Virus record (IMG/VR): IMGVR_UViG_3300047359_000671
Span: 1-64,000 of that record
Length of the DNA: 64,000 nt
Source of the DNA: a virus
Direction: 5' to 3' (one strand)
Each line of letters opens with the position of its first letter. Position 1 is the stretch's first letter. The notes beneath the pieces are model-generated. The model saw only the letters and a program-made list of their open reading frames with translations, ran no database searches and was not told where the DNA came from. Made by a program: the position numbers and the translations under genes. This document shows, in pieces, positions 54,519 to 56,999 of this stretch.

Positions 54519-54725
54519 ATGAAGATATACTTAATCATTACTTTCGTTCTCATTAGTGGTTCAGAACAAATTATGCCACAGTTCCCACCAAAAGAGGTTA
54601 CAACTATGGAGATTTGTGAACGTAAAAAAGCGGCAGCGGAAGAATACTTTACATATCAATTAGAGAATAAACCAGTTAAGTCTATAGCAGGATTTAACGT
54701 ACAGTGCCAGGAAATAGAATCATAA
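54519..54725 (+). CDS. Small secreted or membrane-anchored protein with two Cys
   Basis: MKIYLIITFVLISG hydrophobic N-terminus; MEICE and VQCQE. Confidence 0.65.
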   Translation: MKIYLIITFVLISGSEQIMPQFPPKEVTTMEICERKKAAAEEYFTYQLENKPVKSIAGFNVQCQEIES

Positions 54726-55157
54726 TTTTTTACTAATGCTTTCTAAGTATTCAGTTAATATTTTAGAACTTCCTACTCTAACATTAATAATCCCGTTGTA
54801 ATATTCATCGGTTTCTAACACTCGTCGGTCAAACTGTTCTTTTGCTTCGACATAACTCAAAGCACCACGACTCGGACAGTAGTGTAGAATTTCACGCATA
54901 AACTTGTTGGGACCTAATTTTTTTACATCAGCAATTAAATGTTCAGAAGAACCCCAATAGTCTCGCCAATCACTCTCTTTAAACCCACGTCTTTTGTTTT
55001 TTCTTCCTTTAAGAGGTGGTTTCGTTGTTTTAAATCTTGCTAACTTCTTACCCACATACTTTCGGTTGTTTTCAAGATTCGTAATTAAATACACAAATCC
55101 CTCAACATCTTCGGGTAATTCATTTACCACTTCTCCGTTATATTTCCAATCGCTCAT
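54720..55157 (-). CDS. GIY-YIG endonuclease (T4 endonuclease II/DenA-like)
   Basis: GFVYLITN...RKYVGKK, ESDWRDYWGSS, F.REIL, E..EQF, YYNG.I. Confidence 0.88.
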   Translation of the reverse strand: MSDWKYNGEVVNELPEDVEGFVYLITNLENNRKYVGKKLARFKTTKPPLKGRKNKRRGFKESDWRDYWGSSEHLIADVKKLGPNKFMREILHYCPSRGALSYVEAKEQFDRRVLETDEYYNGIINVRVGSSKILTEYLESISKKL

Positions 55158-55179
55158 AGTATTCCATTTGTTTTATTCT

Positions 55180-55760
55180 AAAAGGTCTAAAGACCTAATT
55201 CCTTCATAAATTTCATTCGCTTTCGCTCAATCAATTTATTCGGTATTTCTTTTATATCTATAATATACTTATATATTCTATTATTATGGTATTATAATAT
55301 TATCTTTTATACTTGTTCCGTTTAGAAGCCATAATTGCCCTGTTGCCAGGACAATAAAAAAATGGCGGAAACTTGTTCCTTGCTCATCAGCCTCTGTGTC
55401 TAAGTTAGCCTCCAGCAAAGGCGAGGTCGGTTGGCGATTCCCTCATCACTTAGTATTGCGTCTTTCGACCCAACGGCACACTATTCAACTCACACAGTTC
55501 AACTTGAATAATGCAACTAGATTGCCTAGTTCGGTTTGTACAAATGTACGGTATTCTCTGGTCATCCTAATATCCTTTAGAGATATGGATGTTTTATATT
55601 ATAAACAGTCTTTTGTGGTTTACGAGAAGAATGTAGGAGTTCATCCCTACTAGTCTGAACGTATGTAGAATATACGCCCTCAATCCCGGAACGGCAACCC
55701 GCTCAACAGTCCCACTATATCGATTATATTAGTTTTCATATTAGTCCCCATTGTTGAGCC
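55180..55760 (-). ncRNA. Candidate large structured non-coding RNA (boundaries approximate)
   Basis: About 12 consecutive hairpins in the longest intergenic gap of the window. The GNRA loops and G-U pairs read correctly only on the minus strand. Confidence 0.65.
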
Positions 55761-55809
55761 ATATTAGTTATAAAAAGATGTATTAGTTTTATATTAGTTT
55801 TATATTAGT
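55726..55809. repeat. Six ATATTAGT-type direct repeats (iteron-like)
   Basis: ATATTAGT at 55726, 55738, 55761, 55791 and 55802; GTATTAGT at 55780. Confidence 0.85.
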
Positions 55810-55813
55810 ATTG

Positions 55814-56035
55814 TTAGATTATAGGCGTCCCAGCCTGTTTGCTCATTTCGAAATTCTCATTGACAATTTCGTTTAGATAGTCTATGTGACCTGCGGGCAT
55901 TTCGTGTATTTCACTAATGCTAACCCCACCTCTCATATACCAACTTAACTTTAACATATTCTTATGTAGTTTGTCAAGTCTTTTTTGATATTTTTCTTGT
56001 TTTTCTGCAATTTCTTCTGGGCTGGCGTTAACCAA
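55814..56035 (-). CDS. Baseplate hub/tail assembly chaperone C-terminal module (gp51-like), probably made by -1 frameshift
   Basis: KLSWYMRGGVS..E...M motif. TTG start with no clear RBS; in the -1 frame of the upstream ORF. Confidence 0.7.
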   Translation of the reverse strand: MVNASPEEIAEKQEKYQKRLDKLHKNMLKLSWYMRGGVSISEIHEMPAGHIDYLNEIVNENFEMSKQAGTPII

Positions 56036-56040
56036 CCAGC

Positions 56041-56871
56041 CTAAGAAAAATTTACAGGATTAATCTCAAGCGTTATTTCGTCTTTATGTCCACAATCAGC
56101 ACATGTAAATTCAAACTTTGATAAATCGTCAGGCTTTTTGCTTAACTCTTTTACTTTACTTTGAATTGTCTTTACAATAGGTGCAGGGATATCATTTAGA
56201 AATTGTCTAATTTCTTCTTCATCAACCACATCACCTTCTGGTGTTTCTATTCTAGCAATAGACGTTGTAACTAAATCAATATTCTGAATTGCAACTTTTC
56301 TAAAGCCGTCTGAAAAAGTCTTGGCTAAAGTTAGTTCGTCTTCTTCTTCATTTACTGATTTACGAACACTTTCAAGTATTCGTCTTTGTTCAACTTCCAT
56401 TAATGCTAAACGTGTTATGCTTTCAATTTTTGCTGGTTGAACGTGAATTTTTAAATCATCGAATTCAATCGGTTCAACTTCTGAGATATCAGGGAATTTA
56501 TCTAATAGATAGTTGATATCTATATTATAATCTCCCTGCGCTTTACACTCTGAACAGGTGTGAGTATGTGTAATATCTTTTCCGTATGTTGCATATTTGA
56601 TAGCAAGAAACAACGCTTCCACATCAATGTTACACAATTGTCTTGCGTCTTCGATAGATGGAACACAACTTTGAATAAGATTGATTAAAGCCTCACCATT
56701 TAGTAATGCATCTGGGTTCTCTAATGAAATCTCATCCACTGCCGTCATGGGCAAAATACCGATTTCATCTAATATCGTTTTATCTATTTCCGGGTTAAAC
56801 TTCCCACCAGTTGGTATTTGCACATACAACTGTGGTTTACGGAAATATTTTGATAATAAGTTTTTGCTCAT
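56041..56871 (-). CDS. Baseplate hub assembly protein/tail chaperone (T4 gp26-like)
   Basis: L.KYFRKP.LY..IPTGG, PMTA.DEI....PDALLNG, two CxxC pairs (CSEC, CADC), ends ..PVNFS. Confidence 0.82.
   Translation of the reverse strand: MSKNLLSKYFRKPQLYVQIPTGGKFNPEIDKTILDEIGILPMTAVDEISLENPDALLNGEALINLIQSCVPSIEDARQLCNIDVEALFLAIKYATYGKDITHTHTCSECKAQGDYNIDINYLLDKFPDISEVEPIEFDDLKIHVQPAKIESITRLALMEVEQRRILESVRKSVNEEEDELTLAKTFSDGFRKVAIQNIDLVTTSIARIETPEGDVVDEEEIRQFLNDIPAPIVKTIQSKVKELSKKPDDLSKFEFTCADCGHKDEITLEINPVNFS
56047..56053 (-). other. -1 ribosomal frameshift slippery heptamer A AAU UUU
   Basis: GTA-AAT-TTT-TCT-TAG in the zero frame. The -1 frame continues TTC-TTA-GGC-TGG-TTG into the ORF ending at 55814. 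Confidence 0.72.
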
Positions 56872-56937: not shown

Positions 56938-56965
56938 TATTTACTCTATTATAAACTACGAAGTT
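56938..56965 (-). promoter_or_regulatory. Bipartite late promoter: AACTTCGTAGTT-N9-GTAAATA
   Basis: Plus strand reads TATTTAC at 56938-56944 and AACTACGAAGTT at 56954-56965. Confidence 0.75.
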
Positions 56966-56999
56966 ACAGAAGTCAACCTTTTTTTTGAGAGAGAACAAC

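What the first reader, a model, noticed from the sequence alone, without database searches (positions are those of the whole stretch)
55180..55760. Large ornate non-coding RNA candidate directly upstream of a GIY-YIG nuclease
Seen (minus strand, 5' to 3'): GCUCAACA...UGUUGAGC; CGUAU/AUACG; GUAGG/CCUAC; CAUCC-AUAUC/GAUAU-GGAUG; GUACA/UGUAC; AACUAG-GCAAU-CUAGUU; UAUUCAA/UUGAAUA; GUC-GAAA-GAC; GAGG/CCUC; GCCUUU/GGAGGC; GGAA/UUCC; GCCAU enclosing AUUGUCCUG-GCAA-CAGGGCAAU; then AUAAAUU..GC-GAAA-GC..AAUUUAU. GNRA tetraloops and G-U wobbles fix the strand. GGAACAAGU is repeated (55371-55379 and 55311-55319). I cannot match it to tRNA, tmRNA, RNase P, or group I/II intron cores. A ~650-bp gap is exceptional in this genome. 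Inference: an undescribed structured RNA. It could be a ribozyme or scaffold, a partner RNA for the co-oriented small nuclease (by analogy to RNA-plus-nuclease loci such as HEARO/IscB), or a replication primer RNA.
Basis: partly seen in the sequence, partly recalled or inferred. Interest (0 to 1): 0.85.

Follow-up and report, generated by a model that had tools for sequence, protein, structure and literature searches.

The report
New large knotted RNA, marine jumbo phages
The gene-free gap holds a real gene for a large, intricately folded non-coding RNA of an uncatalogued family that uncultured marine giant phages keep once per genome; what it does is unknown, and it is probably not a guide for the small DNA-cutting enzyme next to it.

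Summary
Confirmed. Window 55183-55810 (minus strand) encodes a ~0.63-kb non-coding RNA. It has a 5' leader with 6-7 CUAAUA repeats, a 392-nt core (55329-55720), an AU-rich linker and two 3' hairpins.

- **Distribution:** homologues occur in 135 fetched marine viral or metagenome loci (58 distinct cores), one copy per contig. None were found in bacterial genomes or cultured phages.
- **Structure:** on 22 diverse sequences, 94.6% of 127 proposed pairs are kept, against 37-42% in slid controls. 49 pairs show compensatory changes. Two pseudoknots are supported.
- **Known families:** no Rfam 15 family matches.
- **Neighbouring nuclease:** it is not a fixed partner. It is GIY-YIG in one clade and a PD-(D/E)XK resolvase-like protein in another. 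In a third context the RNA is a separate unit between a terminator, its own promoter and the next promoter. The same GIY-YIG gene occurs without the RNA in many other phages.
- **Synteny:** cultured jumbo phages place endonuclease VII or a Holliday-junction resolvase in the same slot.

Function is unknown. My best guess is a free-standing folded RNA. The scan flagged this family earlier in relatives from other genomes, and I reach the same verdict.

The parts
55727..55808 (-). 5' leader with 6-7 CUAAUA repeats, some spaced 11-12 nt apart
   Evidence: This is the only CTAATA cluster in the 91-kb record. All 58 distinct family members have 3-7 copies just upstream of the core. In relatives the repeats lie downstream of the promoter.
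55329..55720 (-). Conserved RNA core, about 392 nt with at least 17 helices
   Evidence: nhmmer and alignments. 94.6% of pair cells are kept against 37-42% in slid controls, and 49 pairs show double changes.
55615..55720 (-). Domain 1: GUGG/CCAC and CGGGA/UCUCG enclose three hairpins (P3 GAGCGG/CCGUUC, P5, P6)
   Evidence: P3 has 4 of 6 pairs with compensatory changes, P5 has 5 of 8, and P6 has 3 of 5.
55563..55591 (-). P7 hairpin with the nearly invariant loop UCUAAAG (55575-55581)
   Evidence: 5 of 9 pairs covary. The loop is CUAAAG in 20 of 22 sequences and is complementary to the loop of the last hairpin.
55482..55510 (-). P10 hairpin UAUUCAA/UUGAAUA; its loop carries the 5' strand of pseudoknot 1 (CUGUGU, 55492-55497)
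   Evidence: Helix 10 has 5 of 7 covarying pairs.
55394..55399 (-). 3' strand of pseudoknot 1 (ACACAG)
   Evidence: UUCUAUGU/ACAUAGAA in most members becomes UAAUGUAU/AUACAUUA in L084, L151 and L153. 97.2% of cells are paired and 4 of 8 pairs show double changes.
55430..55474 (-). Pseudoknot 2: GUUGG (55470-55474) pairs with the loop CCAAC (55430-55434). It spans the GNRA hairpin GUC-GAAA-GAC (55460-55469).
   Evidence: The fifth pair is G-C in 15 sequences and A-U in 7, with no exception. The GNRA loop varies as GAAA, GCAA or GUAA.
55400..55453 (-). Three-way junction P13 (CUAAGU/ACUUAG), P14 (GAGG..UCG/CGA..CCUC) and P15 (GCCUU/GAGGC)
   Evidence: P13 has 3 of 6 pairs with double changes, P14a has 2 of 4, and P15 has 3 of 5.
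55371..55379 (-). Direct repeat, copy 1 (GGAACAAGU)
   Evidence: Exact repeat. Both copies change together across the family.
55311..55319 (-). Direct repeat, copy 2 (GGAACAAGU)
55328..55366 (-). P17 hairpin AUUGUCCUG-GCAA-CAGGGCAAU, extended by GCCAU/AUGGC
   Evidence: P17 is 100% paired. The extension is read from the alignments (GCCAU/AUGGC here and in L154; CGCA/UGUG or ACAC/GUGU elsewhere) and competes with a terminal helix ACAUA/UGUGU.
55247..55327 (-). AU-rich linker, variable in sequence and length
   Evidence: Alignments.
55183..55246 (-). 3' tail: a long hairpin (55198-55246), then a short hairpin AGGUC-UUUA-GACCU (55183-55196) with the invariant CUUUAG
   Evidence: Helices 20-22 covary. 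The stem is GGGUC/GACCC in L084 and AUGGAAAC/GUUUCCAU in L180 with the same loop. The tail is lost in L105 and L126.
54720..55157 (-). 145-aa GIY-YIG nuclease gene. It is a neighbour, not shown to be part of the RNA's function.
   Evidence: Pfam PF19835, E 1.8e-34; phrog_447.
55814..56871 (-). Upstream neighbours: gp26-like baseplate hub gene (56041-56871) and a 73-aa ORF in the -1 frame (55814-56035)
   Evidence: Pfam PF12322. The synteny is kept in nearly all loci.

Best explanation
The gap is the gene of a ~0.63-kb non-coding RNA of an uncatalogued family carried once per genome by uncultured marine jumbo myoviruses.

Shown:
- The core is conserved more strongly than the flanking baseplate gene.
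- It folds into at least 17 helices with two pseudoknots and a GNRA hairpin, all kept by compensatory changes.
- In most relatives a host-type (sigma-70-like) promoter lies just upstream.
- In one lineage the RNA sits between a terminator plus its own promoter and a separate downstream promoter.

Inferred:
- It is made as a discrete RNA. In this phage, which lacks that promoter, it would be made by read-through from the gp26 operon or from a promoter-like site inside the 73-aa ORF.
- It works as a free-standing folded particle: a scaffold or ribonucleoprotein, a self-assembling RNA like ROOL or GOLLD, or a ribozyme.
- It is not a guide for, or a mere leader of, the nuclease gene.
- The nuclease next to it most likely fills the phage's junction-resolvase slot, and the adjacency is conserved synteny.
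For: - **Homologues:** 135 loci and 58 distinct cores. There is one copy per contig, up to 187 kb.
- **Conservation:** core nucleotide identity is 70-75%, while gp26 protein identity is only 58-64%.
- **Structure:** 94.6% paired against 37-42% slid; 49 compensatory pairs against 9-13. Pseudoknot 1 has 4 of 8 pairs covarying. The pseudoknot 2 pair is G-C 15 / A-U 7 with no exception.
- **Coding:** no conserved ORF.
- **Promoter:** TTGACA-17-TAGTAT with TG upstream in relatives, found in 50 of 58.
- **L180:** terminator, promoter, RNA with tail hairpins, then a separate 11/12 promoter.
- **L105 and L126:** a radical-SAM gene lies between the core and GIY-YIG, and the tail is lost.
- **Nuclease:** families swap and are mutually exclusive on long contigs. 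CBB has endonuclease VII in the same slot, and Phosso has a phrog_244 resolvase, the same phrog as the clade B protein. GIY-YIG occurs without the RNA elsewhere.
Against: - No transcript ends or strand have been observed. The metatranscriptome data are contigs only and could include DNA.
- The window's own phage lacks the upstream promoter.
- In three of four contexts a small nuclease gene still follows within 0.1-1.4 kb, and an HNH gene lies 1.3 kb downstream in L180. A functional tie to a nuclease is therefore not excluded.
- Nothing indicates what the RNA binds or does.
Confidence: 0.55

Rival explanations
1. It is a cis-acting leader of the resolvase-type nuclease mRNA. The folded RNA would delay or gate translation of a DNA-cutting enzyme that would be harmful if made early. 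This is an elaborate version of the RBS-masking hairpins known for T4 gene 49 and I-TevI (from my own knowledge).
For: - The RNA is co-oriented and directly upstream of a small nuclease in clades A and B.
- Cultured jumbo phages also have 0.8-1.0-kb non-coding gaps in front of endonuclease VII or a resolvase in the same synteny.
- No strong terminator lies between the RNA and the gene in the window.
Against: - L180 has a separate promoter after the RNA and no adjacent nuclease.
- L105 and L126 have another gene in between and have lost the tail.
- The conserved hairpins do not cover the ribosome-binding site.
- A 390-nt double-pseudoknotted core is far more than masking needs.
Confidence: 0.17
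2. It is a replication origin. Phased CTAATA iterons and a promoter would produce a structured primer RNA that forms an R-loop in the downstream AT-rich tract, in the manner of ColE1 RNA II or T4 oriF/oriG.
For: - The CTAATA cluster is unique in the record, and some copies are 11-12 bp apart.
- Relatives have a promoter upstream.
- An AT-rich tract follows the core.
Against: - Selection acts on RNA pairing, including two pseudoknots.
- The AT tract lies about 400 nt from the repeats, varies in length, and is replaced in L105.
- The window lacks the promoter.
Confidence: 0.1
3. It is an RNA partner of the nuclease: a guide, an activator or an RNA inhibitor (type III toxin-antitoxin logic) that binds the neighbouring enzyme.
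For: Persistent adjacency to a small nuclease. Repeats lie in the leader.
Against: - Unrelated folds (GIY-YIG, PD-(D/E)XK) would need to bind the same conserved core.
- GIY-YIG is found without the RNA, and the RNA without an adjacent nuclease.
- Proteins of 145-181 aa have no RNA-binding domain in Pfam.
Confidence: 0.08
4. It is a self-cleaving or self-splicing ribozyme, or the remnant of a mobile intron that once carried the endonuclease gene.
For: Both GIY-YIG and PD-(D/E)XK enzymes occur as intron homing endonucleases (from my own knowledge). The core is pseudoknotted. A conserved CUGAUGA is present.
Against: - No group I or II, hammerhead or other ribozyme model matches, even at E 10.
- Genes downstream of the nuclease are convergent, so there is no 3' exon.
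- The RNA stands alone in L180.
Confidence: 0.05

Closest known systems
GOLLD (RF01998) and ROOL (RF03087), large ornate RNAs often carried by phages and prophages (PMC12286853)
   Same: It is large, multi-domain, pseudoknotted, phage-borne and conserved by covariation, with no known function. A complementary pair of invariant loops (CUAAAG and CUUUAG) could make kissing contacts of the kind that hold those RNAs together.
   Different: No covariance-model match. It is smaller than GOLLD. No tRNA genes are nearby. It occurs in marine lytic jumbo phages at a fixed spot after a baseplate gene. Oligomerisation was not tested.
HEARO / IscB omega-RNA and other guide RNAs next to nucleases
   Same: A large structured RNA lies directly upstream of, and co-oriented with, a nuclease gene.
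   Different: The nuclease is 145-181 aa, belongs to changing families, and is separable from the RNA. No HEARO match. No guide-like variable segment facing a target was identified.
Group I introns carrying GIY-YIG or PD-(D/E)XK homing endonucleases (T4 td/I-TevI type)
   Same: A structured, pseudoknotted RNA lies next to a small endonuclease gene whose family can be swapped.
   Different: It does not interrupt a gene and no 3' exon is possible. No Rfam intron model matches. The helix order does not follow the P3-P7 topology.
Translational masking hairpins of T4 gene 49 (endonuclease VII) and I-TevI
   Same: It lies upstream of a junction-resolving or DNA-cutting enzyme in a T4-like phage.
   Different: Those are single hairpins that cover the ribosome-binding site. 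This is a 390-nt core that can stand alone.
Non-coding gaps before endonuclease VII in Rak2/CBB-like phages and before the resolvase in Sinorhizobium phage Phosso
   Same: The order is the same: gp26-like gene, small ORF, 0.8-1.0 kb without genes, then the resolvase-type nuclease.
   Different: No detectable homology by nhmmer or by the covariance model. The CBB element has five copies per genome.

Membership tests
Any Rfam 15 family (including group I/II introns, RNase P, tmRNA, GOLLD, ROOL, HEARO, OLE, hammerhead) | Covariance-model score at or near the family's gathering threshold | tested here: not met
   No hit at gathering score in the 64-kb window. At E up to 10 on 54900-56100 there are only three chance-level hits, none in the core.
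Group I intron with homing endonuclease | Interrupts a host gene, with exons on both sides | tested here: not met
   The upstream ORF ends at 55814. Genes beyond the nuclease run on the opposite strand and abut it.
Group I intron with homing endonuclease | P3-P7 pseudoknot core with a guanosine-binding site | tested here: inconclusive
   Two pseudoknots exist, but their order (loop of P10 to after P13; strand before the GNRA hairpin to the loop of P14) does not follow the group I scheme. No 3D test is possible.
HEARO/omega-RNA type guide RNA | Obligate pairing with one nuclease family (IscB/TnpB, about 400 aa or more) | tested here: not met
   The neighbour is GIY-YIG (145 aa), PDDEXK_15 (181 aa), or not adjacent at all. 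GIY-YIG occurs without the RNA.
GOLLD/ROOL-like large ornate phage RNA (a descriptive kind, not a homology family) | More than 400 nt, many helices and pseudoknots kept by covariation, carried by phages | tested here: met
GOLLD/ROOL-like large ornate phage RNA | Frequent adjacency to tRNA genes | tested here: not met
   No tRNA in the window.
GOLLD/ROOL-like large ornate phage RNA | RNA-only homo-oligomeric assembly | not testable with these tools
   The only hint is that the P7 loop CUAAAG and the terminal hairpin loop CUUUAG are complementary.
Type III toxin-antitoxin (ToxIN-like) | Tandem repeats of a ~36-nt antitoxin RNA before an endoribonuclease toxin | tested here: not met
   Only 6-nt CUAAUA repeats are present. 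The neighbours belong to DNA nuclease families.
T4-type or ColE1-type origin with primer RNA | Promoter followed by a DNA-unwinding AT-rich element where the transcript stays hybridised | tested here: inconclusive
   The promoter is present in 50 of 58 relatives but absent in the window. The AT-rich tract is present but variable and dispensable in L105.

The most novel reading that the evidence does not exclude
The RNA is a new class of functional large RNA. One option is a ribozyme. The other is a self-assembling particle that joins head to tail through its two complementary invariant loops. Its twin, co-varying 7-9-nt motifs would each pair with a phage-specific nucleic-acid target. This would link it to DNA processing by the resolvase-type nuclease encoded next door.
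Probability: 0.15. Interest if true: 0.92.

Novelty: new variant of a known kind. Interest (0 to 1): 0.78.

Why it matters
Only a handful of large, intricately folded bacterial or phage RNAs of unknown function are known (OLE, GOLLD, ROOL, HEARO, raiA). Those that have been studied have given new biology or new structures. This RNA is abundant in ocean viral data and strongly constrained, with two pseudoknots. It sits at a fixed place in giant phages next to the enzyme that probably debranches DNA before packaging. Its size and number of relatives suit cryo-EM and biochemical work. The concerted twin motif is a concrete, testable handle on what it recognises.

Tried and rejected
- **Rfam:** searches of the window, the locus and the cultured-phage gaps gave nothing.
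- **GenBank phages:** blastn of the gap found no match.
- **Intron in a gene:** rejected because there is no room for a 3' exon.
- **Leader pairing with the AU-rich linker:** duplex energies equal those of shuffles (mean z about 0).
- **Internal or nearby complement to the twin motif:** none is consistent across the family. There is one extra genomic match to its complement in the window, which is not significant.
- **Homology with the gaps of CBB, Phosso and Melnitz:** none by nhmmer or by the covariance model.
- **Pattern hits in 24 bacterial genomes and 18 metagenome contigs:** all chance.
- **Metatranscriptomes:** Logan contigs of four seawater runs cover the locus, and relatives' cores appear at depth 13-26. 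Contigs give no strand, ends or level, and DNA carry-over cannot be excluded, so there is no verdict on expression.
- **PDB sequence search with both nucleases:** no hit.
- **Literature:** searches found no description of this RNA. A catalogue of more than 10,000 candidate structured RNAs from IMG/VR (PMC10690425) may contain pieces of it, but its tables are not held.
- **All-against-all covariation scan:** too noisy to use. It was replaced by a helix-run scan.

Full report
**What is there.** On the minus strand, a gp26-like baseplate hub gene (56041-56871; Pfam T4_baseplate) comes first. A 73-aa ORF in the -1 frame follows (55814-56035). Then come about 650 nt without a gene, and then a 145-aa GIY-YIG protein (54720-55157; PF19835, E 1.8e-34). 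Beyond the nuclease the genes run the other way. This is the longest stretch of the 91-kb record without an ORF of 90 aa or more. It has raised G+C (0.42-0.45 against about 0.34). Its minus strand folds better than shuffles (z -3.46) and the plus strand does not (z -0.89).

**Relatives.**
- The record is an IMG/VR fragment of an uncultured marine phage, with an estimated completeness of 24%.
- Its nearest cultured relatives are jumbo phages: SbcC is 50% identical to PA5oct, and gp26 is 32% identical to CBB.
- blastn and nhmmer first found the gap conserved at 70-75% in about 20 contigs with the same gene order.
- Two motif scans of IMG/VR raised this to 73 contigs.
Of the 80 loci fetched, 62 carry the RNA.
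- In all, 135 loci carry it, with 58 distinct full-length cores.
- A covariance model of the central domain finds exactly one copy on each long contig, up to 187 kb. It finds none in the 378-kb CBB genome, Phosso or Melnitz.
- Pattern hits in bacterial genomes are chance.
- The core is better conserved than the neighbouring gp26 protein, which is 58-64% identical at the amino-acid level. No ORF is shared across the gap.

**Structure.**
- I wrote a structure of 127 pairs from RNAalifold output and inspection. I then counted it on 22 diverse sequences from both clades.
- 94.6% of cells are paired, against 37-42% when partners are slid.
- 49 pairs have changes on both sides, against 9-13 in the slid controls.
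- No shuffle out of 500 reaches the observed values.
The outermost GCUCAACA/UGUUGAGC is not: that segment forms the covarying hairpin GAGCGG/CCGUUC.
- Pseudoknot 1 joins the loop of P10 to the strand after the P13-P15 junction. It reads UUCUAUGU/ACAUAGAA in most members and UAAUGUAU/AUACAUUA in three lineages.
- Pseudoknot 2 joins GUUGR, just before the GNRA hairpin, to the loop YCAAC. The R-Y pair is G-C in 15 sequences and A-U in 7, with no exception.

**Flanking modules.**
- All members have 3-7 CUAAUA repeats before the core. In this record that cluster is unique.
- After an AU-rich linker come a long hairpin and a short one whose loop, CUUUAG, is invariant while its stem covaries.
- That loop is exactly complementary to the nearly invariant P7 loop CUAAAG. 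This could be an intra- or intermolecular kissing contact, which is inference only.
Both copies change together across the family: UGAACAAG, UAUCAAG, UGACAAG, UAACAAG, GGGACAGA, AGGACAGA. I found no conserved complement in cis. This remains unexplained.

**Transcription.**
- Most relatives (50 of 58) have TTGACA-17-TAGTAT with an extended -10 just upstream of the repeats.
- The window's phage and some clade B members lack it.
- A promoter-like site lies inside the 73-aa ORF (55977-55948).
- Seawater metatranscriptome contigs cover the locus and relatives' cores. Being contigs, they prove neither strand nor ends.

**The nuclease.**
- The link to GIY-YIG is not obligate.
- A second clade has a PDDEXK_15 protein in its place (PF24608; phrog_244 'RusA-like Holliday junction resolvase').
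- The two nucleases are mutually exclusive on five long contigs.
- L105 and L126 have a radical-SAM gene between the core and GIY-YIG and have lost the tail.
- In L180 the RNA follows a strong terminator and its own promoter. It keeps the tail hairpins and is followed by a separate 11/12 promoter. The nearest nuclease there is an HNH gene 1.3 kb away.
- Conversely, about 60 loci and phage Melnitz carry close GIY-YIG homologues without the RNA.
- CBB shows gp26, a small ORF, a 786-nt gap and then endonuclease VII. Phosso shows a 1-kb gap before a phrog_244 resolvase.
- I therefore read the neighbour as the phage's junction-resolving enzyme, replaced non-orthologously between lineages. The adjacency would then be synteny. 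This reading is inferred, not shown.

**Verdict.** This is a real RNA family absent from Rfam 15 and, as far as I could find, from the literature. In kind it is closest to GOLLD and ROOL (PMC12286853) but is not related to them. I rate a free-standing folded RNA as most likely. A cis leader, an origin primer, a nuclease partner and a ribozyme remain open. The scan noted the same family earlier in other genomes and reached the same conclusion. Those notes are not independent evidence.

Noticed in passing
window 56035-56065 (minus strand): The gp26-like ORF ends GUA AAU UUU UCU UAG. This contains an in-phase A_AAU_UUU heptamer, and the hairpin GCUGG-N10-CCAGC starts 5 nt later. The 73-aa ORF is open in the -1 frame. 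All relatives keep the two ORFs overlapping in that frame relation. CBB and Phosso have a separate small ORF there.
   Followed up: partly
L157:4044-4829 and L167-L170 (Pectobacterium phage CBB, KU574722.1): The 786-nt gap before endonuclease VII is conserved at 67-93% in 65 Rak2/CBB-like jumbo phage records. It has four paralogues of about 0.5-0.7 kb in CBB. All five lie on the same genome strand, four of them antisense to their neighbours. There is no Rfam hit, and the fold z-score is -2.2. This may be an undescribed multi-copy non-coding element.
   Followed up: partly
L158:5233-6246 (Sinorhizobium phage Phosso): A 1-kb gene-free stretch lies directly before a Holliday junction resolvase of the same PHROG (244) as the clade B nuclease. 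It is near the gp26-like gene. No homology to the marine RNA or the CBB element was detected.
   Followed up: partly
L105:5209-6417 (also L126): A 402-aa radical SAM protein (PF04055) is inserted between the RNA core and the GIY-YIG gene. It replaces the RNA's 3' hairpins.
   Followed up: partly
window 55948-55977 (minus strand): A sigma-70-like site (TTGACA-18-TAAAGT with TG) lies inside the 73-aa ORF and is also present in L084. It could drive the RNA in phages that lack the intergenic promoter, or it could simply reflect coding constraint.
   Followed up: no
window 56945-56980 (minus strand): The gp26-like 'late' baseplate gene is preceded by a near-consensus host-type promoter (TTGACT-17-TATAAT) with an A-tract upstream.
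   Followed up: no
window 54720-55157: This 145-aa GIY-YIG family is very common in marine phages: more than 599 IMG/VR stretches and 802 GenBank phage records. It is often annotated 'NAD synthetase' (phrog_447), which looks like a propagated misannotation.
   Followed up: partly
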